Shown in pieces: positions 1,532-50,377 of a stretch of DNA of 64,000 nucleotides. The DNA is from an uncultured Gemmatimonadales bacterium (GTDB taxonomy: Bacteria; Gemmatimonadota; Gemmatimonadetes; Gemmatimonadales; Gemmatimonadaceae). The stretch's first letter is position 1. Each line of letters begins with the position of its first letter. The notes under the pieces are model-generated. The model was not told the DNA's origin, made no database searches, and was given only the letters and a program-made list of their open reading frames with translations. The stretch spans positions 320,001 to 384,000 of the forward strand of contig CAWBZV010000005.1 in assembly GCA_963793305.1 (NCBI GenBank). Reading direction: 5' to 3'. A program made the position numbers and the translations under genes.

Positions 1532-1613
1532 TGCTCGGAGCGGGACTCGAACCCGCACGTCTTTCGACACAGGATCCTAAGTCCTGCGCGTCTGCCAGTT
1601 TCGCCACCCGAGC
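1532..1613 (-). tRNA. tRNA-Leu(TAG), CCA not encoded
   Basis: Reverse strand GCTCGGG...CAGGA-CT-TAG-GA-TCCTG, long variable arm GTCGAAAGAC, T-arm GCGGG-TTCGAGT-CCCGC, acceptor closes TCCGAGC-A. Confidence 0.95.
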
Positions 1614-7096: not shown

Positions 7097-9267
7097 CCAT
7101 TACGGACACGATCGGACCCGGCACCACTCAGCCGGCACACTTTCTCAACCGCGAGCTCTCCTGGCTCGAGTTCAACGCCCGCGTTCTGCAGGAGGCGTTC
7201 GACGCGCGCAATCCACTCCTCGAGCGCGTCAAGTTCGTGGCGATTTTCAGCTCGAACCTGGATGAGTTCTATACCGTTCGCGTCGCCGGCCTCCGACGTC
7301 AAGTCGCCGCGGGCATCGCGCTGCCGTCGCCCGACGGACTCACGCCTTCGGAGCAACTCGCGGCGATCACTGTCCGCGTAAACGATCTGCTGGCGCAGCG
7401 CCGCAAGGTCCTCCACGAGCTGCTCCTGCCCGCGCTGGCCGAGCGCAGCGTCCGCCTGGTCGCCATGCCGGATCTGACGCCTCCCGAATGGCTGACCGTG
7501 GACGAGTTCTTCGAGTCCCAGGTGTTCCCGGTGCTGACGCCCCTCGCGGTCGACCCGGGTCACCCGTTCCCCTATATCTCGAATCTGTCCCTGTCGCTCG
7601 CCGTCGAAATACGCGACCCGGTGAGCAAGACCGACCATTTCGCGCGCGTGAAGGTCCCAAAGAGCCTCCCACGCTGGGTCCCGTTTGGACGCAACTACTG
7701 CTTCATCCCACTCGAGCAAGTCATTGGCACGAACCTCGGCGCCCTCTTCCCGGGAATGGAAATTCTCGGCTGGCACGCCTTTCGAGTCACCCGCTATACG
7801 GATCTGGAGTTGGCCAAAGTTGACGAGGCCGAAGACCTGCTCGAGATGATCGAGCAGCAGGTGTTCGAGCGCCGCTTCAGCGAAGTCGTGCGCCTCGAGG
7901 TCCAGCCGACGATGCCCGCGCATCTCCGCTCGCTGCTCCTCGAAGAACTGCGCGAAGAGACATTGGCCAACCTCCCGCCACTCACCGAGGCAGACGTTCA
8001 GGAGGCCGACCCGCTCCTCGACTTGGGCGACCTCATGTCGCTGCTACACATCGATCTCCCGGACCTCAAGGATCCACCGTTCACCGCCATCGTCCCACCG
8101 GAGTTCCGCGAAGTCGGGCACTCGCACCTGACGGTGTTCGACGCGATCCGCGAACGGGATGTGCTCGTGCACCATCCGTTCGAGTCGTTCCAAGCGTCCG
8201 TCGAGCAATTCTTGAAGGCCGCCGCCCAAGACCCGGCCGTGCAAGCGATCAAGATGACGCTCTACCGCACATCCGGCGACGCGTCCATCGTCCACGCGCT
8301 GACCGAAGCGGCCATGCTCGGCAAGCAAGTCGCCGTGCTCGTCGAGCTCCAAGCGCGCGGCGACGAGTCCAACAACATCTCCTGGGCGCGCACACTGGAA
8401 AATGCGGGCGTGCACGTGGCCTATGGTGTGCCGGGCCTCAAAACGCACGCCAAAACAACGTTGGTCGTTCGCCGCGACGCCGACGGCCTGCGCCGCTACG
8501 TGCACATCGGGACGGGGAATTACAACTCGTCGACGTCGAAACTCTATACCGATATCGGCCTGTTCACCTGCAGCCCGTCGATCGGCGCCGATGTCAGCGA
8601 TCTGTTCAACTCGCTGACAGGCTATTCGCGTCAACGCCTCTACCGCAAGCTGCTCGTCGCCCCGGCCAACATGCTCGGCCGATTCCTCGAGCTGATCGAA
8701 CGCGAGGCGCAACTCGCGCGCGATGGAAAGGGCGGAAAGATTGTCGCCAAGCTCAACGCGCTCGTGCATCCCGAAGTCATCGAGACGCTCTATCGCGCAT
8801 CGCAAGCCGGCGCCGAGATCGATTTGATCATCCGCGGTATCTGCTGCTTGAAGCCTGGCGTCGAGGGACTGAGCGAGCGTATTCGGGTCAGCAGCATCAT
8901 CGGACGATTCCTCGAGCACTCGCGCATCTGGAAGTTCGCCAACGCCGGCCAGCCCGAGTACTACATCGGCTCAGCCGACTGGATGCCACGCAACCTCGAG
9001 CGCCGGGTCGAATGCGTGACGCCGGTCGATGATGTCGCGCTGCACGCCCGACTCGACTCGGTGCTCGCCACGGACCTGGCGGACAATCGCCTCGCGTGGG
9101 ACCTCGCTGGGGACGGCTCATACCAGCAGCGCCAGCCGAACGGGCAGCCCGAGCGCGCCAGTCAGAAAATTTTGATCCGCGAGCCGTGGGGCCGCGTCGG
9201 CGACGACGGTGTGGCTCCGGCGCGCCCGAGCGGTGAGCGCTTGCGGCCGGAAGCTTCTGCCGGGTGA
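7087..9267 (+). CDS. ppk1: Polyphosphate kinase 1
   Basis: FLNRELSWLEFNARVL, HPFPYISNLSL, LKTHAK, GTGNYN, GRFLEHSRI, GSADWMPRNL. Confidence 0.98.
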   Translation: MAVTITDTIGPGTTQPAHFLNRELSWLEFNARVLQEAFDARNPLLERVKFVAIFSSNLDEFYTVRVAGLRRQVAAGIALPSPDGLTPSEQLAAITVRVNDLLAQRRKVLHELLLPALAERSVRLVAMPDLTPPEWLTVDEFFESQVFPVLTPLAVDPGHPFPYISNLSLSLAVEIRDPVSKTDHFARVKVPKSLPRWVPFGRNYCFIPLEQVIGTNLGALFPGMEILGWHAFRVTRYTDLELAKVDEAEDLLEMIEQQVFERRFSEVVRLEVQPTMPAHLRSLLLEELREETLANLPPLTEADVQEADPLLDLGDLMSLLHIDLPDLKDPPFTAIVPPEFREVGHSHLTVFDAIRERDVLVHHPFESFQASVEQFLKAAAQDPAVQAIKMTLYRTSGDASIVHALTEAAMLGKQVAVLVELQARGDESNNISWARTLENAGVHVAYGVPGLKTHAKTTLVVRRDADGLRRYVHIGTGNYNSSTSKLYTDIGLFTCSPSIGADVSDLFNSLTGYSRQRLYRKLLVAPANMLGRFLELIEREAQLARDGKGGKIVAKLNALVHPEVIETLYRASQAGAEIDLIIRGICCLKPGVEGLSERIRVSSIIGRFLEHSRIWKFANAGQPEYYIGSADWMPRNLERRVECVTPVDDVALHARLDSVLATDLADNRLAWDLAGDGSYQQRQPNGQPERASQKILIREPWGRVGDDGVAPARPSGERLRPEASAG

Positions 9268-9839
9268 CCCACGACGATGGACCGGGGTCTCCCCAGGTAG
9301 TGGCAAGCGACGCGGAAACAATAGCCCGTGTCGTGGCCGGTGACACCGAGGCATTCAGCATCCTCGTCGACCGTTACGGCAATCGGGCAGCTCGTTATGC
9401 CACGCGGATGCTCGGCGATCGCGCCGAGGCGGAGGAAGCCGTCCAGGACACTTTTGTGCGCGCCTATCGGGCGCTCAGCCGCTGTGCGGATCGCGACCGG
9501 TTCGGTCATTGGTTGTTCAGCATTCTGATCAACCGGTGCCGGACCGCCGGGGCGCGGTCGGGACGGCGTGCTCGCACATTTGTCCGCGACGAGACGGCGT
9601 TGGTGGCGGCGGCGGCGCCCGATGCGTTTGATGGAGTGGCCTGGCGTGAAGAGATTGCACACGCACTGGCTCGGCTCGAAATGAGTCAGCGCGAAGCGTT
9701 TTTGCTCAAGCACGTCGAACAGTTGAGTTACGACGAGATGGCGGCGATTACTGGGGCCGGAATATCGGCACTCAAAATGAGAGTCAAGAGAGCGACGGAT
9801 CAGCTACGTATGTTGCTGCATGAGGCATATAGTGCCTGA
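9264..9839 (+). CDS. ECF-type RNA polymerase sigma-70 factor
   Basis: Region 2 (AEEAVQDTFVRAY, WLFSILINRC) and region 4 (REAFLLKHVEQLSYDEMA, KMRVKRA); GTGA overlap with ppk1 stop. Confidence 0.92.
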   Translation: MTHDDGPGSPQVVASDAETIARVVAGDTEAFSILVDRYGNRAARYATRMLGDRAEAEEAVQDTFVRAYRALSRCADRDRFGHWLFSILINRCRTAGARSGRRARTFVRDETALVAAAAPDAFDGVAWREEIAHALARLEMSQREAFLLKHVEQLSYDEMAAITGAGISALKMRVKRATDQLRMLLHEAYSA

Positions 9840-10308
9840 CTGGATTGATCAACTCGGTGAAGAGCTGCGTGCGCCAGTCGAGCTGTCGTCGCTCACAACG
9901 GCTCGAATCATGGCGGCCGTGCGTGCCGATGCGGCGCGCCGCAAGCGGACGCGTATTTGGGTGGCGTCTGCCGCCGCGGCGGTCGTCGTGCTAGCGGCCG
10001 GCGGCATCGTGGCCGTGCAGATGAGAACGGAGCAGGGGACTGCTGTGCAGTTCGCGTTGCCGATACCTGCGGCGCACGAAGTCGTAATCGTCGGCGACTT
10101 CAACCACTGGGACACACACGCCACGCCGCTGCGTCGTACGACGAACGGCACATGGCAGACGACGGTCCGCCTCAAGCCCGGCGCCCACGTCTACTCGTTC
10201 GTCGTCGACGGCAACCGCTGGGTCCCAGATCCGGCCGCACCACTCGCGCCAGGCAGCGACTTCGGCGCCCCGAACTCGCTCGTCACCGTCACCCCGGGTG
10301 CGACATGA
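9820..10308 (+). CDS. Putative anti-sigma factor: short N-terminus, one TM helix, C-terminal CBM48/AMPK-type glycogen-binding (E-set) domain
   Basis: TM WVASAAAAVVVLAAGGIVAV; VVIVGDFNHW...W...LKPGAHVYSFVVDGNRWVPDP; overlaps sigma gene end. Confidence 0.8.
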   Translation: MRHIVPDWIDQLGEELRAPVELSSLTTARIMAAVRADAARRKRTRIWVASAAAAVVVLAAGGIVAVQMRTEQGTAVQFALPIPAAHEVVIVGDFNHWDTHATPLRRTTNGTWQTTVRLKPGAHVYSFVVDGNRWVPDPAAPLAPGSDFGAPNSLVTVTPGAT

Positions 10309-10387
10309 GATCGGCGAAGCCGATCTTGCTGTCAACAGACCAGTCGAGCGGCGCGAAAGCGCTGCGTCGACGCGCCGCGGAGCGGCG
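10305..10387 (+). repeat. Three-hairpin in-frame repeat, copy C
   Basis: AGATCGGC-GAA-GCCGATCT ... GACCAGTCGA-GCGGCGC-GAAA-GCGCTGC-GTCGACG-CGCCGC-GGA-GCGGCG. Confidence 0.85.
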
Positions 10388-11036
10388 GTACGCCGGCGCG
10401 GTCGTCCTCGGGCTCGCTGTCCTCACCGTTCGCTTGGACGCCCAAGCAAACGATGACCGCCTGCGCGGCCTGTTCGATTCGCCGACGTACGCCTCCTTGC
10501 ACGCCGTGCTCGACTCGGCGCGCGCCGCCGGACTACCAACCGAGCCCCTGATCGACAAGGCCTTGGAAGGCTCGGCGAAGCACGCCACCAGCGATCGCAT
10601 CGTCATCGTCGTTCGCGACCTGTCCGCCAGGCTGGCAGATACGCGCACCGCACTAGGCGGATATGGCACAACCGACGAGCTATCGGCCGGGACCGCCGCG
10701 CTGCGCGCGGGAATCGCACCGGCGACGCTTGCCGACTTACGCCGTTTGCGGCACAATGAACAGGTGACGATTCCTCTCGCTGTTGCCGCTGAGTTGGTCG
10801 CTCGTGGCGTCCGTCCGGATAGCGCCTCCGCCCAGGTCTTGCGCTTGGCCGCCGCCGGAGCGCCCGACGTCGAACTTGCCACCCTGCCTCGGTCCCTCGC
10901 CTCGCCCTCGGTTGTCTCCTCTCTCTACCCCGGCGGCCCCGGGTTTTTGGCCCCTACCACCGCGGTCAATGGAGGCAAGTCGAGCGGACCGGTTGAAGCC
11001 GGAAGGCCACCAAAACGGAGCCCACAACGCCCCTGA
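10305..11036 (+). CDS. Hypothetical exported protein with repeat-derived N-terminus
   Basis: ATGA overlap with upstream stop; signal-like AVVLGLAVLTVRLDAQ; LPTEPLIDKALEG motif. Confidence 0.75.
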   Translation: MRSAKPILLSTDQSSGAKALRRRAAERRYAGAVVLGLAVLTVRLDAQANDDRLRGLFDSPTYASLHAVLDSARAAGLPTEPLIDKALEGSAKHATSDRIVIVVRDLSARLADTRTALGGYGTTDELSAGTAALRAGIAPATLADLRRLRHNEQVTIPLAVAAELVARGVRPDSASAQVLRLAAAGAPDVELATLPRSLASPSVVSSLYPGGPGFLAPTTAVNGGKSSGPVEAGRPPKRSPQRP

Positions 11037-34364: not shown

Positions 34365-35387
34365 GTGGTCACACGGGACTGGCTCCGCCGACTGCCGAAG
34401 GCCGAGCTCCACTGTCATTTGGATGGCTCCCTGCGTCCATCAACGCTGTTGGAGCTCGCGCGCGAACATGGCGTGCCGATTCCGGCCGGCGATGCCGAAG
34501 GCGTCAGGCGCTACATGCGAGTAGCGAACGCGCACAATCTCGAGGAATATCTCGCCCGTTTCGCGACGACTGTCGCAGTCCTCCAACACGCCTCATCGCT
34601 CGAGCGCGCCGCGTATGAGCTGGTCGAGGATGCGGCCCGCGATGGCGTACGCTACATCGAAGTCCGGAACGCGCCGATCCTCAACACGCGCGCCGGTCTA
34701 TCGCTTGTCGAAGTCGTCGAGGCGATGATCCGCGGTCTCCAGCGCGGCGAGCAAGTCCACGGCGTCATCGCGCGAGCGATCATTATCGCGCTCCGCCACA
34801 TGCCGCCGTCGACCTCGATGGAGATCGCCGAGCTCGCATCGGCATTTCTCGGCAACGGCGTCGTGGCGTTCGATCTCGCCGGCGCCGAGGCCGGGTACCC
34901 CGCGGCCGACCACGCCGCGGCGTTCCTCTATGCGCGTGAACGTGACCTGGCGTGCACCTGCCACGCGGGCGAAGGCGACGGCCCGCTTTCCGTACGCCAA
35001 GCCGTCCATCGCTGCGGCGCGCACCGGATAGGCCACGCCACTCGGCTGATCGAGGATCCGTCGCTGACGGAGTTCGTGAACGACCGTCGCATCCCGCTCG
35101 AGATCTGTCTCACCAGCAATGTCCAGACTCGCGTGGCCAGCACGTACGCCGAGCATCCGCTGCGGCGCTACGTCGACCTGGGGCTCAGCGTCGTGCTCAA
35201 CACGGACAATCGCCTGATGAGCGATACGACCCTCACCGACGAGTACGAGCACGCGGCGACCGAGGTCGGTCTCACGCCCGACGAACTGTCGGCGATCGCG
35301 CTCAACGGGTTCGAGTCCGCCTTCCTCCCGTGGGCCGAGCGACAGGCGCTCGTCGCGCGTATGCGCGCCGAGATCGCCGCACTATGA
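34365..35387 (+). CDS. add: Adenosine deaminase
   Basis: LPKAELHCHLDGS, FDLAGAE, TCHAGE, RIGH, CLTSN, NTDN. Confidence 0.96.
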   Translation: MVTRDWLRRLPKAELHCHLDGSLRPSTLLELAREHGVPIPAGDAEGVRRYMRVANAHNLEEYLARFATTVAVLQHASSLERAAYELVEDAARDGVRYIEVRNAPILNTRAGLSLVEVVEAMIRGLQRGEQVHGVIARAIIIALRHMPPSTSMEIAELASAFLGNGVVAFDLAGAEAGYPAADHAAAFLYARERDLACTCHAGEGDGPLSVRQAVHRCGAHRIGHATRLIEDPSLTEFVNDRRIPLEICLTSNVQTRVASTYAEHPLRRYVDLGLSVVLNTDNRLMSDTTLTDEYEHAATEVGLTPDELSAIALNGFESAFLPWAERQALVARMRAEIAAL

Positions 35388-35464
35388 GCTCGGCGGAGCC
35401 GAGCTCTGGCCAACCGACCAGTCGAGCAGCGCTTGCGCTGCGTCGACGCGCGGCGGAGCCGCGC
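35384..35464 (+). repeat. Three-hairpin in-frame repeat, copy A
   Basis: GAGCTCGGC-GGA-GCCGAGCTC ... GACCAGTCGA-GCAGCGC-TT-GCGCTGC-GTCGAC-GCGCGGC-GGA-GCCGCGC. Confidence 0.9.
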
Positions 35465-36241
35465 GATAGCATCACGCGCGCCGCCGCGGCGATACGCTCC
35501 TGCTGTGACGCGACCGCTCCATCGATCGGCATCATCCTCGGCTCCGGACTCGGCGGCCTCGTCTCGCACATCGAACACGCCAAGCGCGTCTCGTTCTCCG
35601 AGCTGCCCGGCCTCCCGGTGCCCGCGACGCCCGGTCACGCCGGTGCATTCGTGTACGGCATGCTCTGCGACCGCGAAATCGTCGCCGTCGCGGGGCGGCT
35701 GCATCTCTACGAGGGTGTCGACGCCTCGGCGGTCGGCATTCCCATTCGCATCCTGGCCGCCCTCGGTGTCCGCATACTCGTACTGTCGAATGCGGCTGGC
35801 GGGATCCGTCCCGATCTCACCCCCGGCACGCTGATGCTGCTCACCGACCATATCGACCTCACAGGCCGCCCACCATTGGTAGGCAGATCCGCGCCCACAT
35901 ATGACGTTGCGCTAGCCGGAGCAATGCGCGGTGCCGCGTCAGCGGCCCGCGTCATGCTATCAGAGGGAGTGTATGCCGCGATGCTCGGCCCGTCCTATGA
36001 GACTGCCGCTGAGATTCGCATGCTGTCAGCGCTCGGTGCCGATGCGGTGGGGATGTCGACAGTCCCAGAAGCGATCGTCGCGGCCTCGCTGGGCCTCCGC
36101 GTAGCCGCAATCAGCTGCATTACAAACCACGCCACGGGCACGAGTGCCGAGACGCTCAGTCACGCCGAGGTGCTGGCGGTGACGTCCCGGGTGGCGCCAC
36201 AGTTCGAGCGCGTTATTCGCCGTTTCGTAGCGCGGCTATGA
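35384..36241 (+). CDS. Purine-nucleoside phosphorylase (trimeric PNP/XapA family) with repeat-derived N-terminus
   Basis: IILGSGLGG, GHAG, GRLHLYEG, NAAGG, GPSYET, VGMSTVPE. Confidence 0.93.
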   Translation: MSSAEPSSGQPTSRAALALRRRAAEPRDSITRAAAAIRSCCDATAPSIGIILGSGLGGLVSHIEHAKRVSFSELPGLPVPATPGHAGAFVYGMLCDREIVAVAGRLHLYEGVDASAVGIPIRILAALGVRILVLSNAAGGIRPDLTPGTLMLLTDHIDLTGRPPLVGRSAPTYDVALAGAMRGAASAARVMLSEGVYAAMLGPSYETAAEIRMLSALGADAVGMSTVPEAIVAASLGLRVAAISCITNHATGTSAETLSHAEVLAVTSRVAPQFERVIRRFVARL

Positions 36242-37698: not shown

Positions 37699-38534
37699 TC
37701 CCTCCGGCACTGTTGCTGACGTTCGTATTCCTGACCGGGGCCGCGGTCGGCTCGTTCTTGAACGTGTGCATATCGCGCTGGCCGCTCAACCTGTCGGTCG
37801 TCCGCCCGCGCTCCCGCTGTCCTCGCTGCGAGCGCTCGATCACGTGGTACGAGAACGTGCCGATCGTGAGTTGGCTCGTGCTGCGCGGCAAGTGTCGTGG
37901 ATGCCGGCTGCCGATCTCGATCCAGTACCCGGCCGTGGAGCTCGGGATCGCGCTCCTGTGGGTCGCGGCCTTCGCGGCGTTTTCGTCCGATTGGTTCCTT
38001 GCGCTCCGCGTCGCGGTATTTACGACGGTGCTCGTCGGCATCGCGGTGACGGACCTCAAGCACTATCTGATCCCCGACGGATTCACGGTCTTCGGTCTCC
38101 TGTGGCTGTTCACGACGTCGCTGGCGGCCGCGATGATGGGCGACCCTGGCGTGTTCGCGTCCCCGTACGATTCGCTGATCGGCGCCTGCGTGGGCGCCGG
38201 CGCGATCTCGATTATTGGATGGTTGGGGGAAGTGGCGTTGGGGAAAGAGGCGATGGGATTCGGCGATGTCACGCTCATGGCGGTCGTCGGCGCCGCGCTG
38301 GGACCGCCGCGCACCTTGCTCACGATTTTCGTCGGCGCCGCCGTCGGCGCGCTGGTCTTCGTCGTGTTCGTGGCGCCGATCGTCTGGCTGCGACGGCGTC
38401 GCGCCGGGGCCGGCGGTGCCGCGGAATTGCCGCTCGTGCCGTTCGGCGTTTTCCTTGCGCCGGCCGCGCTCTTCACGTTGCTTAAAGGTGATGCCGCTAT
38501 CGCGTGGTATCTGTCACGCCTCGGGCTCCGCTGA
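37695..38534 (+). CDS. pilD: Type IV prepilin peptidase (A24)
   Basis: GSFLNVCI, RSRCPRC, GKCRGC, MGFGDV, PFGVFL. Confidence 0.93.
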   Translation: MIPPALLLTFVFLTGAAVGSFLNVCISRWPLNLSVVRPRSRCPRCERSITWYENVPIVSWLVLRGKCRGCRLPISIQYPAVELGIALLWVAAFAAFSSDWFLALRVAVFTTVLVGIAVTDLKHYLIPDGFTVFGLLWLFTTSLAAAMMGDPGVFASPYDSLIGACVGAGAISIIGWLGEVALGKEAMGFGDVTLMAVVGAALGPPRTLLTIFVGAAVGALVFVVFVAPIVWLRRRRAGAGGAAELPLVPFGVFLAPAALFTLLKGDAAIAWYLSRLGLR

Positions 38535-38542
38535 GTGATTAA

Positions 38543-38638
38543 CGCCGCTCCGCGGCGCGTCGATGCACCGCTACGCGCTGCTCGACTGGTCGGTTCTCCT
38601 CCGGGGGGCCAACCCCAACTACGCCCCCCGGACCCCCC
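38543..38638 (-). repeat. Intergenic inverted member of the hairpin repeat family (copy D) joined to a G/C-tract hairpin module
   Basis: Minus strand GGGGGGTCCGGGGGGC...GCCCCCCGG-AGGAGAACC-GACCAGTCGA-GCAGCGC-GTA-GCGGTGC-ATCGACG-CGCCGC-GGA-GCGGCG. Confidence 0.85.
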
Positions 38639-38655
38639 AAGGCCTTAGATTCCAC

Positions 38656-39723
38656 GTGATCAATACCATTCTTGACCGCTTCACGCGCGACCTCACGGCC
38701 GACGCTCGCGCGGGACGGCTGGAGCCGATCCGCTGCCGCGCGGCCGAGACGTCGCGGCTGATCGACATTCTGCTGCGATACGAGAAGAACAATGCGGCGC
38801 TCGTAGGCCCCGCCGGCGTCGGCAAGACCGCGATCGTCGAAGGCTTGGTCGAGCGGATCGCCGCCGGCGACGTCCCGGTCTCGCTCCGCGGCGTCCGCGT
38901 GCTCGCGCTCGATCATGTGGCCCTCCTCGGCGGCACGATGTACCGCGGCCAGTACGAGGAGCGCGTGAACGCGATCGTCGATGGCGTCACCGCGGCCGGT
39001 GACGTGATCCTGTTCGTCGATGAGCTGCACAATCTCATTGGCCAGGGCACGGCGATGGGCGCGGCGATGGACGCCGGCAACATGCTCAAGCCCGCGCTCG
39101 TGCGGGGGGCGTTCCGCGTCATCGGCGCGACGACGATCACCGAGTATACGCGGTGGATCTGCGGGGATCCGGCGCTCGAGCGCCGGTTCCAGAAGATCGA
39201 CGTGCGCGAGCTGAATACCGAGGAGACGCTCGACATTCTCCGCGCGCGGGTCGACCGGTTGGAGCGCCACCACAACGTCGTGATCGCGGACGACGCCGTG
39301 CTCGCGGCGGTCCAGCTCACGGATCAGTACATCATCGATAGACCCCGGCCCGACCGGGCTATCGATGCACTCGATGAGGCCTGCGCGCACGCGCACGCCG
39401 TCGCCGAGTATTCACCGGCGACGCTCGCCATGATCGAACGCAAGCGGGCGACGCCCACTCCCGAGCCCACGCCCGCACCAAATAGAGAAGGTCTGGACCT
39501 GCTGGATCGCTTAGGCGCAGAGCTCGAGTACGTCTTTGGTGGCACAAACGCCGACGCTCCCGTCGAGATGCGTGGAGGGGATCGCACAGTTCCGAGACCC
39601 ACCGCTGAGCTCAACGCCGAGCTGAGACTGCGCCTCACCGAAGATGGCATTGTCGTCCGAGGCGTCGACATTGCCCGAGCCGTAGCGGTGGCGACCAATC
39701 AACGCGTTGTGTGGCCCGCATGA
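38656..39723 (+). CDS. Truncated ClpA/B/C-like AAA+ ATPase (NBD1 only)
   Basis: KNNAALVGPAGVGKTAIVEGL, YRGQYEER, LFVDELH, GATT, DPALERRFQ, PDRAIDALDEA; no N-domain or NBD2. Confidence 0.88.
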   Translation: MINTILDRFTRDLTADARAGRLEPIRCRAAETSRLIDILLRYEKNNAALVGPAGVGKTAIVEGLVERIAAGDVPVSLRGVRVLALDHVALLGGTMYRGQYEERVNAIVDGVTAAGDVILFVDELHNLIGQGTAMGAAMDAGNMLKPALVRGAFRVIGATTITEYTRWICGDPALERRFQKIDVRELNTEETLDILRARVDRLERHHNVVIADDAVLAAVQLTDQYIIDRPRPDRAIDALDEACAHAHAVAEYSPATLAMIERKRATPTPEPTPAPNREGLDLLDRLGAELEYVFGGTNADAPVEMRGGDRTVPRPTAELNAELRLRLTEDGIVVRGVDIARAVAVATNQRVVWPA

Positions 39724-48824: not shown

Positions 48825-49499
48825 ATGGGGCGGCGCTGGAGCCCCATTGAGCGCGAACTGCGGCAGGAGTACGGGCCGTTGCTCGCGGGAGTCGACGAGG
48901 TTGGACGGGGCCCTCTCGCGGGTCCCGTTGTCGCTTGTGCCGCCGTGATGCCCGCTGACAAGGCCGCCATTCGCGGGGTCAACGACTCGAAGCAGCTCAC
49001 GCGCGCCGATCGCGAGCGCTTCGCGGGCCGCATTCGCGACCAAGCCGTCGGTCTCGCCCTTGGCGCCGCGTCCGTCCGCGAGATCGAGCGTGTGAACATC
49101 TACCACGCGACGGTGCTCGCGATGCGCCGCGCGCTGACGCGGCTCGCTGCTACCGGCGTCACGCCGAACTACGTCGTCGTCGACGGCAAACCAGTGCGTT
49201 CACTCGGCATCCCTCACCGCGCCGTCGTCCACGGAGACGCGCGCTGTTACAGCGTTGCCTGCGCATCGATCATCGCCAAGGTGACGCGCGATGCCCTCAT
49301 GCGCCGCCTCGCCGCGCGTCATCCCTGCTACGGCTGGGACCGAAACGTCGGATACGGCACGCGGTTTCACTGGACCAGCCTCAAGGAGCACGGGCTCTCC
49401 CTGCATCATCGGCGGGCGTTCTGCGAGGATGATCAGCTGGAGCTGGAGCTCACGCTCGAGGTGATCACCGACGACGTCGCCGAGGCACTCGTCGAATGA
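48825..49499 (+). CDS. rnhB: Ribonuclease HII
   Basis: AGVDEVGRGPLAGPV, DSKQL, VDG, ASIIAKVTRD, GYGT. Confidence 0.96.
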   Translation: MGRRWSPIERELRQEYGPLLAGVDEVGRGPLAGPVVACAAVMPADKAAIRGVNDSKQLTRADRERFAGRIRDQAVGLALGAASVREIERVNIYHATVLAMRRALTRLAATGVTPNYVVVDGKPVRSLGIPHRAVVHGDARCYSVACASIIAKVTRDALMRRLAARHPCYGWDRNVGYGTRFHWTSLKEHGLSLHHRRAFCEDDQLELELTLEVITDDVAEALVE

Positions 49500-49576
49500 G
49501 CGAGACGGAGTCGAGCTCTGGTGAACAGACCAGTCGAGCAGCGCTTGCGCTGCATCGACGCGCGGCGGAGCCGCGC
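49496..49576 (+). repeat. Three-hairpin in-frame repeat, copy B
   Basis: 73/81 nt identical to 35384-35464 by manual alignment. Confidence 0.9.
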
Positions 49577-50377
49577 TCGATATTTCGCGATGATGTATTG
49601 AAAGGCCAAGTCGCGCTGATCACCGGTGGCGCGACGGGTATTGGCTTTGGGATCGCCGAGATACTGGTCGACCTCGGCGCCCGCGTCGTACTGGCGAGCC
49701 GCAAACCGGAGCGTCTCACCTCCGCGGTCGACCGCCTCGGCCCAAACGCGAGCGCCGAACAGCTCGACGTTCGCGATGCGGAGGCGGTGAAGGCCGTCGT
49801 GAGCCGCGTAGCGGCCACGCACGGCCGAATCGATCTCCTGGTCAACAACGCCGCTGGCAATTTCTACGCACCATCAGAGTCCTTGAGCCCGAACGCCTGG
49901 CGCTCCGTCGTCGAGATCGATCTCTTCGGCACGTTTTTCTGCTCGCAGGCCGTCGCGCCAATCATGCGCGCCGCCGGCGGCGGTCGCATCGTAAATATCT
50001 CGATGACGCTGCACTACCGCGGCTGGCCGCAAATGGCGCATGCCACTGCTGCCAAGGCAGGAGTGGACGCGCTGACGCGGACGCTGGCCGTGGAATGGGC
50101 GCCCGCGAAGATACGGGTGAATGCGATAGCGCCCGGGCCCATCCCGACCGAGGGCGTGCGCAAAGCGTTCACGCAGCCCGCTGGCGGGCCGGCCGTCGAG
50201 ACCGTGATGGATGAGCACGCCCGCCGCAATATCCCCCTCGGCCGCTGGGGCACACCGGCCGATATCGGCAACATGGTCGCGTACTTGGCGTCACCGGCCG
50301 GCGATTGGATCACCGGCTCGATTCTTGTTGTCGATGGTGGCGAGTGGCTATCCAAGCCAGAAGCCAAGCCCATCTAA
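49496..50377 (+). CDS. SDR oxidoreductase (2,4-dienoyl-CoA reductase-like) with repeat-derived N-terminus
   Basis: ITGGATGIG, LVNNAAGNF, AAKAGV, NAIAPGPI, VDGG. Confidence 0.92.
   Translation: MSETESSSGEQTSRAALALHRRAAEPRSIFRDDVLKGQVALITGGATGIGFGIAEILVDLGARVVLASRKPERLTSAVDRLGPNASAEQLDVRDAEAVKAVVSRVAATHGRIDLLVNNAAGNFYAPSESLSPNAWRSVVEIDLFGTFFCSQAVAPIMRAAGGGRIVNISMTLHYRGWPQMAHATAAKAGVDALTRTLAVEWAPAKIRVNAIAPGPIPTEGVRKAFTQPAGGPAVETVMDEHARRNIPLGRWGTPADIGNMVAYLASPAGDWITGSILVVDGGEWLSKPEAKPI

What the first reader, a model, noticed from the sequence alone, without database searches (positions are those of the whole stretch)
35384..35464. Structured ~81-nt repeat inserted in-frame at the ATGA start of three unrelated genes
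Seen: copies at 10305 (exported protein), 35384 (PNP) and 49496 (SDR) all begin at an ATG overlapping the upstream TGA and add 27-28 codons (e.g. MSSAEPSSGQPTSRAALALRRRAAEPR). Copies A and B match at 73/81 nt. All fold as three hairpins: H1 (C-GNA-G loop), core GACCAGTCGA-stem-loop-stem-RTCGACGCG, and H3 (C-GGA-G loop). Stems covary: GAGCTCGGC/GCCGAGCTC vs AGATCGGC/GCCGATCT, and GCGGC/GCCGC vs GCCGC/GCGGC. In the SDR the native-looking SIFRDDVL start resumes right after the element, and in both the SDR and PNP no obvious alternative start precedes the native-looking N-terminus. Inference: a small mobile or structured element, analogous to Rickettsia palindromic elements, that targets or survives at translationally coupled junctions and remodels protein N-termini. 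It could also tune coupling or mRNA processing; GGA loops resemble CsrA/RsmA or SD-like sites.
Basis: partly seen in the sequence, partly recalled or inferred. Interest (0 to 1): 0.82.

Follow-up and report, generated by a model that had tools for sequence, protein, structure and literature searches.

The report
Small hairpin repeat inserted in genes
A 75-base, three-hairpin mobile repeat has recently spread to about a hundred places in this soil bacterium's genome, including in-frame inside and at the starts of ordinary genes, much as the palindromic elements of Rickettsia do.

Summary
The three window copies (10307-10387, 35386-35463, 49498-49575) belong to a family of about 100 copies in this Gemmatimonadaceae genome. 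Matches were found in four of five same-genus genomes and in 0 of 60 other genera of the family. Three hairpins with G-N-A triloops are supported by covariation: 15 of 27 pairs have compensatory changes and 0 of 500 shuffles reach the observed values.

It is mobile DNA. Of 21 copies compared with relatives, 19 are absent from them, and a metagenome contig carries the empty PNP site. The typical insert is 75 nt (25 codons), usually just 3' of a pre-existing xAG and mostly without duplication.

In the three window genes the insert follows ATGAG at a stop/start overlap, and no usable start lies downstream, so the element must be translated. Other copies lie in frame inside PolA, SMC, a zinc alcohol dehydrogenase and transketolase.

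No mobilising enzyme was found: no Y1 HUH transposase, TnpB or reverse transcriptase. No Rfam family matches and no CsrA gene is present.

Verdict: a new RPE-like element family. Targeting of junctions is unproven.

The parts
35386..35463 (+). Element copy at the add/PNP junction. H1 is 35386-35406; its first three bases (GAG) belong to the target side. The conserved single-stranded linker (..CCAACCGACCA) is 35407-35420. H2, with a bulged base, is 35421-35447. H3 is 35449-35463. The inserted DNA is about 35389-35463 (75 nt).
   Evidence: Model R1 scores it 97.1 bits. The empty site is seen in G001 and in a contig of run X3 that joins 35387 to 35464 with one C between.
35384..36241 (+). Purine nucleoside phosphorylase ORF. 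Its only in-frame ATG/GTG/TTG upstream of the conserved core is the ATG at 35384, which overlaps the TGA of the adenosine deaminase gene. Residues about 3-27 are encoded by the element.
   Evidence: PF01048, residues 48-283. One search finds no start within 150 nt after the element. Core dN/dS is 0.09 between the two genomes that carry the insert. AF2 pLDDT is 41-63 for residues 1-30 and above 90 for most of the core.
34365..35387 (+). Upstream adenosine deaminase-like ORF. Its TGA stop (35385-35387) overlaps the PNP start codon.
   Evidence: The junction is xTGA in all five same-genus relatives.
10307..10387 (+). Element copy at the start of an exported-looking protein (ORF 10305-11036), just after the ATGA overlap with the upstream ORF 9820-10308.
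   Evidence: R1 scores it 86.6 bits. G001 has the empty site CGACATGATGAAGTACGCC, which encodes MMKYAGAVVLALAV. The next in-frame start lies 46 nt past the element, inside the hydrophobic segment.
49498..49575 (+). Element copy at the start of a short-chain dehydrogenase (ORF 49496-50377), just after an ATGA overlap.
   Evidence: R1 scores it 83.3 bits. Empty sites are ATGAG^CTCGATATTTCGC in G004 and ATGAGCACGATATTT in G001, and the site is also empty in G005. Pfam hits PF13561/PF00106 begin at residue 38.
38543..38631 (-). Fourth copy, of the variant subfamily whose first hairpin is CCGGGGGGC..GCCCCCCGG preceded by a G-run. It is a 125-nt insert at a GTGA stop/start overlap of two plus-strand genes, with an 8-nt imperfect duplication (TTGATCAC / TTAATCAC) that leaves both genes whole.
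   Evidence: R1 scores it 72.6 bits. It is present at the same place in G001 and absent in G004.

Best explanation
The feature is one copy of a genus-restricted family of small non-autonomous mobile DNA elements. Each is about 75 nt and folds into three GC-rich hairpins with G-N-A triloops. The two end hairpins are nearly the same palindrome, C[T/G]CGGC-GNA-GCCG[A/C]G.

Shown: the element has been inserting recently in this lineage. It usually lands immediately 3' of a pre-existing xAG (mostly GAG), so the target GAG pairs with an element-internal CTC and lengthens the first hairpin. Most insertions carry no target duplication.

The consensus has no stop codon in any sense frame (read by hand), and the common length is 25 codons. 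Copies that land in or at the ends of genes can therefore be read through.

Inferred: selection keeps only the harmless ones. These are intergenic copies, copies just past stop codons, copies in loops or linkers of proteins, and copies right after a start codon. The three window copies are of the last kind. They inserted after ATGAG at a stop/start overlap, kept the ATG, and are translated as a roughly 25-residue, probably flexible N-terminal tail.

Also inferred: initiation there depends on the ribosome that terminates at the overlapping TGA, which would melt the first hairpin.

Not known: the enzyme or route that moves the element.
For: Family size and structure.

Mobility. 21 G000 copies were compared with same-genus genomes. 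19 are absent from every relative compared, and 2 are shared with one relative only. A metagenome contig carries the empty PNP allele.

Insert size. The net insert is 75 nt in PNP, SDR, the exported protein, PolA, C3:913309 and C9:73402 (hand counts from the alignments), and in C2:600090 (from the match coordinates).

Target. 11 of 17 reconstructed junctions of the main subfamily have xAG (7 GAG, 1 AAG, 3 TAG) directly 5' of the insert in the empty allele.

Translation.
- No in-frame ATG/GTG/TTG lies between the element and the conserved PNP core in G000 or in G004 (read).
- The next start in the exported protein would remove its hydrophobic segment.
- 13 of 100 copies lie in uninterrupted frames with coding signal on both sides. 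These include PolA, SMC, Zn-ADH and transketolase, whose relatives lack the insert.
- PolA, SMC and L17 are single-copy in the assembly.
- Lengths are divisible by 3 in 9 of 10 such copies with resolved ends, against 16 of 42 others.
- The PNP core has dN/dS 0.09 between the two insert-bearing genomes.
- All three sense frames are used about equally (13, 12 and 9, counted by eye). The peptide itself is therefore not the selected product.
Against: No RNA or protein data exist for this organism: no RNA run was listed. Translation is therefore inferred from sequence logic only.

No transposase, TnpB or reverse transcriptase was found, and no element-like ends flank the one partial IS110 gene. 'Mobile' rests on presence/absence polymorphism alone.

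The junctions are not uniform.
- Four carry duplications of 3-4, 8, about 12 and 16 nt.
- Two show 7-8 nt of identity between the target and the element's 3' end.
- Four have a few target bases replaced.
A single precise transposase does not predict this spread.

The PNP copy is present in G000 and G004 but absent from G001, although G001 and G004 are the closest pair at this locus (dS 0.35, against 0.54 and 0.69). A single ancestral insertion is therefore not the simplest history.

My gene calls are home-made, and the context counts that depend on them are rough.
Confidence: 0.8

Rival explanations
1. It is a REP/REPIN or an IS200/IS605-derived miniature element. On this view a Y1 HUH transposase moves it as single-stranded DNA, recognising the end hairpins and inserting 3' of a short target without duplication.
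For: Both ends carry sub-terminal hairpins. The stems close G-N-A triloops; from recall, these are very stable in DNA. The DNA fold gives exactly the three hairpins. Insertion follows xAG with no duplication in most junctions. The outer three base pairs of H1 form between target and element and covary across copies: GAG/CTC, GCG/CGC, ACG/CGT, TCG/CGA, GGG/CCC, GAA/TTC.
Against: PF01797 (Y1_Tnp) finds nothing in G000 or in any of the five other genus genomes, one of which is a single contig. The same search rings in 6 of 14 control genomes. TnpB is absent from all six as well. The empty alleles for the GCG/CGC and TCG/CGA copies do not contain the expected target triplet. Four junctions have duplications. 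There is no strand bias relative to GC skew (45 against 55). That measure also shows no gene bias here, so it is weak evidence.
Confidence: 0.1
2. It is mainly a functional RNA or cis-regulatory structure, such as a coupling or processing signal or a protein-binding GGA hairpin. On this view it is kept at gene junctions for that function, not as selfish DNA.
For: Structure is conserved with compensatory changes. The linker CCAACCGACC and the H3 GGA loop are invariant or nearly so. Copies that overlap called genes are mostly co-oriented with them: 45 against 9 for the main subfamily. At the PNP locus, G000 and G004 differ by a paired C-G to T-A change at the base of H3.
Against: Copies lie inside coding sequences of unrelated genes, in both orientations and in all three frames. 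19 of 21 copies compared are lineage-specific insertions. No Rfam family matches, even at E up to 10. No CsrA gene is present in the genus. Intergenic copies show no orientation preference: 18 against 16.
Confidence: 0.06
3. The copies at gene starts are not translated. The true starts lie downstream at non-canonical codons, or the genes are inactive.
For: ATC/ATT/CTG codons exist downstream. PNP has a 41%-identical paralogue at C14. The N-terminal 30 residues have low model confidence.
Against: The PNP core is under strong purifying selection (dN/dS 0.08-0.09). The frame through the element is kept in both G000 and G004 despite a 3-nt difference at the 3' junction. Relatives start exactly at the overlapping xTG. 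Interior copies in single-copy PolA and SMC cannot be skipped.
Confidence: 0.04

Closest known systems
Rickettsia palindromic elements (RPEs; Ogata et al. 2000, as described in the MITE review PMC10969869, passages read)
   Same: Short palindromic dispersed repeats with no recognised transposase. They insert in frame into unrelated protein-coding genes and add a peptide that the protein tolerates. Copy number differs between close species.
   Different: The host is a free-living Gemmatimonadaceae lineage, not Rickettsia. The element is about 75 nt rather than about 100-150. It has three hairpins with G-N-A triloops and a conserved unpaired linker. All three frames are used, so there is no single conserved peptide. 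An xAG insertion point is evident. Sequence relatedness to RPEs was not tested, because no RPE sequence was on hand.
REP / REPIN elements with RAYT transposases
   Same: GC-rich hairpin repeats in about a hundred copies, restricted to a narrow lineage, with compensatory changes in the stems.
   Different: No RAYT or Y1 gene is present in any of six genus genomes. The element is three hairpins long, is not arranged as inverted doublets, and is not confined to extragenic DNA.
IS200/IS605-derived miniature elements (palindrome-associated transposable elements; recalled)
   Same: Hairpins at both ends. Insertion next to a short specific sequence without duplication in most cases. Possible base pairing between the target and an internal element sequence.
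   Different: No TnpA or TnpB is present. Some junctions carry duplications or micro-identities. The target triplet is not seen in the empty alleles of copies with non-GAG outer stems.
Mycobacterial interspersed repetitive units (MIRUs; existence and size from review PMC3184786, passages read; their overlap with flanking stop and start codons is recalled, not seen in a call)
   Same: 40-100 bp repeats that sit between genes of operons. The window copies likewise sit at stop/start overlaps of co-directional genes.
   Different: MIRUs are tandem-repeat units and are not described as three-hairpin structures. Here only two tandem pairs were seen among 100 copies, and many copies are inside genes.
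Short 90- and 150-bp repeat classes counted in Gemmatirosa and other Gemmatimonadota chromosomes (mBio 2024, PMC11237797, passages read)
   Same: Same phylum. Short repeats reach hundreds of copies in some strains and are nearly absent in others.
   Different: In the passages read, that paper counts repeats by length only and gives no structure, target or coding context. Model R1 found nothing in one genome from each of 60 other genera of the family, so those repeats are probably other families.

Membership tests
Rickettsia palindromic elements (as a kind: in-frame palindromic selfish DNA) | Dispersed short palindromic repeat inserted in frame within ORFs of unrelated proteins | tested here: met
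   13 of 100 copies run through open coding frames. Empty sites in relatives were verified for PolA, SMC, ADH, transketolase, C3:913309 and C9:73402.
Rickettsia palindromic elements (as a sequence family) | Sequence homology to RPE-1 to RPE-10 and occurrence in Rickettsia | not tested
   No RPE sequence was available from a tool. The host is Gemmatimonadaceae by the record titles of the nearest PolA loci, so family membership is not claimed.
REP/REPIN-RAYT | A RAYT (Y1 HUH transposase) gene in the genome | tested here: not met
   PF01797 gives 0 matches in G000 (92% complete) and 0 of 6 in the genus. Controls ring in 6 of 14 genomes.
REP/REPIN-RAYT | Single 20-40 nt imperfect palindrome, extragenic, often in inverted pairs | tested here: not met
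   The unit is 75 nt with three hairpins. Copies lie inside genes. Only two tandem direct pairs were seen.
IS200/IS605-derived miniature element | TnpA (Y1) and/or TnpB encoded in the genome, with matching ends | tested here: not met
   PF01797 and PF07282 give 0 of 6 genus genomes.
IS200/IS605-derived miniature element | Insertion 3' of a fixed short target without duplication; sub-terminal hairpins | tested here: inconclusive
   Hairpins are present at both ends. xAG precedes the insert in 11 of 17 junctions. Of 18 junctions (17 of the main subfamily plus the variant copy in the window), 4 carry duplications of 3-16 nt, and 2 show 7-8 nt identity to the element's 3' end.
Classical MITE | Terminal inverted repeats, target duplication of fixed length, a parent insertion sequence | tested here: not met
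   There is no fixed duplication (0, 3-4, 8, about 12 or 16 nt). No multicopy insertion sequence appears in a self-comparison of the assembly. One partial IS110 gene has no element-like flanks.
Any Rfam RNA family | Match at or near a family's gathering score | tested here: not met
   In the window only a tRNA passes gathering. Around the element, the best hit at E up to 10 scores 17.6 bits against a cut-off of 70.
CsrA/RsmA-binding hairpins | A CsrA protein in the organism | tested here: not met
   PF02599 gives 0 of 6 genus genomes. Controls ring in 3 of 14.
Retron msDNA-derived repeat | A reverse transcriptase gene in element-rich genomes | tested here: not met
   PF00078 gives no match in G000, G001 or G004, and matches only in G003.

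The most novel reading that the evidence does not exclude
The element may not be moved by a conventional transposase. On this reading its insertion is guided by short base pairing between the target and the element. The pairing would be either the target xAG/GAG with the internal CTC, which completes hairpin 1, or 7-8 nt identities with the 3' end.

The agent would be either an unknown hairpin-binding recombinase with a re-settable 3-bp guide, or host repair/replication capture of a stable hairpin DNA. The outer stem triplets covary among copies (GAG/CTC, GCG/CGC, ACG/CGT, TCG/CGA, GGG/CCC, GAA/TTC). That pattern would then be a record of guide changes.

A corollary is that stop/start overlaps of the form NTGAG are real hot spots. 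The PNP site would then have been hit independently in two lineages.
Probability: 0.15. Interest if true: 0.8.

Novelty: new member of a known kind. Interest (0 to 1): 0.55.

Why it matters
In-frame 'selfish' palindromic DNA in protein genes has been described mainly in Rickettsia, an obligate intracellular parasite with a decaying genome. Here the same behaviour is seen in a free-living Gemmatimonadaceae lineage of about 5.7 Mb from environmental metagenomes.

The insertions are young enough that nearly every one has an intact empty site in a sister species, and at least one is still polymorphic in nature. This gives a clean natural experiment on three questions: where 25 extra residues are tolerated in PolA, SMC, transketolase, L17 and N-termini; how start-codon context survives a strong hairpin; and how such elements choose sites.

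For annotation, it warns that gene starts and odd 25-residue inserts in this group are real features, not errors. The absence of every usual mobilising enzyme leaves an open and approachable question.

Tried and rejected
- Pattern search with fixed spacing. It found only one copy because loop lengths vary, so I replaced it with nhmmer and a covariance model.
- Fuzzy search for split or autonomous elements, meaning a left end and a right end separated by a gene. The output was dominated by chance hits, and no gene-carrying element emerged.
- Self-megablast for multicopy insertion sequences. It returned only strain-variant duplicate contigs and paralogous genes. The 1.7-kb repeat C3:400254 / C14:30922 is a PQQ-dependent dehydrogenase, not a transposase.
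- Mobilising enzymes. Y1 HUH, reverse transcriptase and TnpB were absent from G000. IS110 has one partial gene in G000 and none in G001 or G004, which do carry elements. Model R1 finds nothing above 10.4 bits in the four best IS110 loci.
- CsrA: absent.
- RNA evidence: no RNA holder was listed for the PNP stretch.
- PDB comparison of PolA. The insert falls in a stretch not aligned to solved polymerases, so it says nothing about tolerance. Family orthologues show that this loop varies in length.
- Protein search with the N-terminal 40 residues of PNP: 157 candidates, none at E <= 0.001. The region is short and of low complexity, so this is not informative.
- Earlier findings of this scan: nothing on record.
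- Replication-strand bias by local GC skew: 45 against 55. Genes show no bias by the same measure, so the test has no power here.
- Rough enrichment estimate for NTGAG junctions. There are 142 such junctions against 38,166 non-genic GAG sites. That predicts about 0.3 of 73 copies, and at least 3 are observed. The null model is too crude to separate targeting from survival.
Full report
**1. What is there**

Each starts at an ATG whose last two bases, plus the next base, form the TGA of the upstream gene.

They are members of a large family. A profile built from 74 seed copies finds 105 hits in the window's own genome at E <= 1e-3. That genome is G000: 5.72 Mb, 26 contigs, 65% G+C, 92% complete. 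A covariance model finds 104. In the window the model finds four copies. They are the three reported ones (86.6, 97.1 and 83.3 bits) and an unreported one on the minus strand at 38543-38631 (72.6 bits).

Of the 100 copies with a recognisable linker and third hairpin, 73 have a variable first hairpin of the type GAGCTCGGC-GNA-GCCGAGCTC. The other 27 carry a different, highly conserved first hairpin, CCGGGGGGC...GCCCCCCGG, preceded by a run of G.

The record titles of the nearest DNA polymerase I loci place the organism in the Gemmatimonadaceae.

**2. Structure**

An alignment of 40 copies of the main subfamily has three parts:
- an invariant or nearly invariant unpaired linker, CCAACCGACCA;
- a long central hairpin with one bulged base;
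- two end hairpins that are almost the same palindrome, each closing a G-N-A triloop.

For the structure I wrote down (27 pairs), 93.5% of cells are standard pairs. That compares with 24-49% when the 3' partners are slid by one to three columns. 15 pairs show changes on both sides (65 cells), and 0 of 500 shuffles reach any of the five observed measures. Related copies can inflate such figures, but the slid controls keep relatedness and fall far short.

The DNA minimum-free-energy fold of the PNP copy is exactly the three hairpins (z = -3.86). The RNA fold keeps H1 and H2 (z = -3.06).

No Rfam family matches. This holds at gathering scores over the whole window and at E up to 10 around the element, where the best hit scores 17.6 bits against a cut-off of 70.

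**3. It is mobile DNA that moved recently**

The model finds 104 matches in G000, 51 in G003, 34 in G001, 15 in G004 (67% complete), 13 in G005 and none in G002. It finds none in one genome from each of 60 other genera of the family. At most 77-150 candidates were scored per genome, so these are not exact copy numbers.

I compared 21 G000 copies with the same-genus genomes. 19 are missing from every relative that holds the locus. The flanks there are joined as an intact 'empty site', often identically in two to four species.

Two copies are shared with exactly one relative:
- the PNP copy, shared with G004 but not G001;
- the variant copy at 38.5 kb, shared with G001 but not G004.

These two lie 3 kb apart and contradict each other as phylogenetic markers. 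At the PNP gene, G001 and G004 are the closest pair (dS 0.35, against 0.54 and 0.69 to G000). Recombination between lineages, or a second hit at the PNP site, is therefore needed.

Contigs of a public metagenome run (X3) include one of 501 nt that joins 35387 to 35464 with a single C between. That is the empty allele ATGA-C-CGATAGC. Runs X1 and X2 carry the filled form. X1 may be the source of this assembly, and X3 is from the same study.

**4. Insertion sites**

These are hand counts from the printed alignments. The net gain is 75 nt in:
- PNP, SDR, the exported protein, PolA, C3:913309 and C9:73402;
- C2:600090, from the match coordinates.
It is 78 nt in C4:110072 and C5:1346084.

In 11 of 17 reconstructed junctions of the main subfamily, the empty allele has xAG directly 5' of the insertion point. 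Seven are GAG, one is AAG and three are TAG. Examples:
- SDR: ATGAG^CTCGAT
- ADH: GCGAG^CTGACG
- PolA: CCGAG^TTGGTC
- transketolase: AAGAG^TCCAGC
- C2:600090: CTGGAG^CCCG
.

In these cases the inserted DNA begins CTCGGC and ends GC[C/G]GCG, and nothing is duplicated. The target GAG then pairs with an element-internal CTC and becomes the outer three pairs of hairpin 1.

Across 59 copies with a resolved first hairpin, the triplet before the inner arm is GAG in 19. The triplet and the three bases after the inner arm are fully complementary in 20 and complementary at two of three positions in another 20. The combinations seen include GCG/CGC, ACG/CGT, TCG/CGA, GGG/CCC and GAA/TTC.

This could mean a guide that pairs with the target. 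However, the empty alleles of the GCG/CGC and TCG/CGA copies do not contain those triplets. In those copies the whole stem came in with the element. I therefore treat 'guide' as an unproven reading.

The junctions are not uniform.
- Four carry duplications: 3-4 nt at C3:627142; 8 nt at the variant copy in the window; about 12 nt around a tandem pair; 16 nt at C3:435650.
- In all four, the duplicated stretch contains a stop codon or a stop/start overlap, so both neighbouring genes stay whole.
- Two junctions show 7-8 nt of identity between the target and the element's 3' end (C4:110072 and C5:1346084).
- Four have one to six target bases replaced.

**5. Where copies sit, and whether they are translated**

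With a home-made gene caller (4,666 genes), the 100 copies fall as follows:

| Context | Copies |
|---|---|
| Intergenic | 34 |
| Partly overlapping a gene end | 24 |
| Same-strand ORF, 5' end | 15 |
| Same-strand ORF, 3' end | 10 |
| Same-strand ORF, interior | 9 |
| Antisense within ORFs | 8 |

A stricter test asks for coding signal in one unbroken frame on both sides. It finds 13 of 100, 10 sense and 3 antisense.

The hosts include DNA polymerase I, SMC, a zinc alcohol dehydrogenase, a MazG-like protein, an arginase-family protein, an ArsR-SRPBCC fusion and, antisense, transketolase. Ribosomal protein L17 has a C-terminal extension that runs through a copy. PolA, SMC and L17 are single-copy in the assembly.

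By hand reading, the consensus has no stop codon in any of the three sense frames. All three frames occur in host proteins at similar frequency. Counted by eye, the motifs ..QPTSRAA....PTDQSS.. and ..NRPVEQ.. appear about 13, 12 and 9 times.

Lengths are multiples of three in 9 of the 10 through-coding copies with resolved ends. The tenth measures 76 by my boundaries but is a net 75 by its empty site. Among the other copies the figure is 16 of 42. That is what read-through under selection predicts, and not what removal from the RNA predicts.

For the three window copies:
- **PNP.** Relatives start at a GTG or ATG that overlaps the upstream TGA; G001 reads GTGACCGACGCCATC = MTDAITR. In G000 no ATG/GTG/TTG lies in frame for 150 nt after the element. 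In G004 none lies between the element and the GSGLG motif (read). The frame is kept in both despite a 3-nt difference at the 3' junction. The core has dN/dS 0.09 between them.
- **SDR.** Relatives read ATGAGCTCGATATTTCGC (MSSIFR), and G000 has exactly 75 nt more after ATGAG.
- **Exported protein.** G001 reads MMKYAGAVVLALAV. In G000 the next start would cut into the hydrophobic segment.

An AlphaFold2 model of the G000 PNP, built with 21 orthologues, gives pLDDT 41-63 for residues 1-30 and above 90 for most of the core. This is consistent with a flexible tail.

That a terminating ribosome opens hairpin 1 to allow re-initiation is my inference.

**6. Targeting or survival?**

The genome has 533 NTGA overlaps by my gene calls, and 142 are followed by G. 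Non-genic GAG sites number 38,166. On that crude null, about 0.3 of 73 main-subfamily copies should sit at NTGAG overlaps. At least three do, all in this window. C3:435650 and the variant copy sit at overlaps too.

This suggests enrichment. But the null ignores how harmful most other insertions are. An xAG target also explains by itself why copies sit right after TAG, or one base after TGA.

Copies that overlap called genes are co-oriented 45 to 9 in the main subfamily. Intergenic copies are not (18 to 16). By hand reading, the antisense consensus is also free of stops. The bias is therefore not explained by stop codons, and I cannot explain it.

**7. What moves it?**

Not found. The searches gave:
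- Y1 HUH transposase: 0 of 6 genus genomes, including a single-contig one. Controls ring in 6 of 14.
- TnpB: 0 of 6.
- Reverse transcriptase: only in G003.
- IS110 family: one partial gene in G000, and none in G001 or G004, which do carry elements. No element-like sequence lies near the four best IS110 loci.
- Multicopy insertion sequences: none in a self-comparison of the assembly.

The assembly is 92% complete, so a missing gene cannot be excluded.

**8. Comparison with what is known**

In behaviour this is closest to the Rickettsia palindromic elements. A recent review describes them as integrating in frame into many unrelated ORFs (PMC10969869, passages read). It also recalls MIRUs at operon junctions (PMC3184786, passages read; the codon-overlap detail is from recall).

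It fails the defining tests for REP/RAYT, IS200/IS605 derivatives and classical MITEs, and matches no Rfam family.

A paper on Gemmatimonadota chromosomes counts short 90- and 150-bp repeats in some strains, without structural or coding analysis in the passages I read (PMC11237797). Two full-text searches returned no description of this element:
- Gemmatimonadetes + 'miniature inverted-repeat': one paper, with an unrelated title, which I did not open;
- Gemmatimonas + 'repetitive element': four papers, of which I opened only PMC11237797.

I could not see supplements that might list repeat sequences.

**9. Verdict**

This is a new, genus-restricted family of RPE-like mobile hairpin elements. 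The CsrA and RAYT suggestions are refuted. Junction targeting remains open.

Claims resting on the unpublished genome G012: none beyond its inclusion in the tallies.

Noticed in passing
window 38543-38631 (-), flanks 38520-38680: A fourth element copy of a variant subfamily (27 of 100 genomic copies). Its first hairpin is replaced by GGGGGG-TCCGGGGGGC..GCCCCCCGGA. It is a 125-nt insert at a GTGA stop/start overlap, with an imperfect 8-nt duplication and 17 nt of unexplained extra sequence next to the downstream start.
   Followed up: partly
window 35384-35464 versus 38543-38631: The PNP copy is in G000 and G004 but not G001. The variant copy, 3 kb away, is in G000 and G001 but not G004. At the PNP gene, G001 and G004 are the closest pair. 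This implies recombination between lineages or repeated insertion at one site.
   Followed up: partly
G000 C3:435650-435729 (locus L177/L234): This copy is flanked by a 16-nt direct repeat, GCTCGTCGCATGACGA. Its first hairpin is therefore identical to the native sequence of an ATGA junction, which is itself hairpin-like in the empty alleles of G001, G004 and G005. No insertion model I considered explains this cleanly.
   Followed up: partly
G000 contigs C1, C7, C8, C13, C15-C17, C21-C24: Small contigs duplicate stretches of the large contigs at 95-99.7% identity. The assembly therefore mixes close strains. A few element copies, such as C21:7242 and C6:1477, are the same locus counted twice.
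   Followed up: no
G000 C3:400156-401965 versus C14:30915-32696: A PQQ-dependent dehydrogenase is present twice at 98% DNA identity. The C3 copy is split into two ORFs where the C14 copy is one 593-residue ORF. This suggests a frameshift or a strain variant.
   Followed up: no
locus L135 (PolA of a Gemmatimonadaceae MAG, 72% identical): At the same PolA loop where G000 carries the element, this relative has a much longer low-complexity insert. The loop seems to be a general acceptor of extra sequence.
   Followed up: no
G000 C3:622502-622566 (locus L250 10003-10067): A 63-nt truncated copy that lacks the third hairpin. It is inserted right after a TAG stop and is absent from G001 and G004. Shortened forms therefore also insert, or the end was lost at once.
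   Followed up: partly
window 9264-11036: The exported-protein gene that carries the first copy is the third gene of a run of overlapping ORFs: an ECF sigma factor-like ORF, then an ORF with an N-terminal anti-sigma-like part and a C-terminal carbohydrate-binding-like part, then the exported protein. This reading comes from the translations alone and was not checked against Pfam.
   Followed up: no
window 1532-1613 (-): A tRNA gene, the only Rfam match in the window at gathering score.
   Followed up: no
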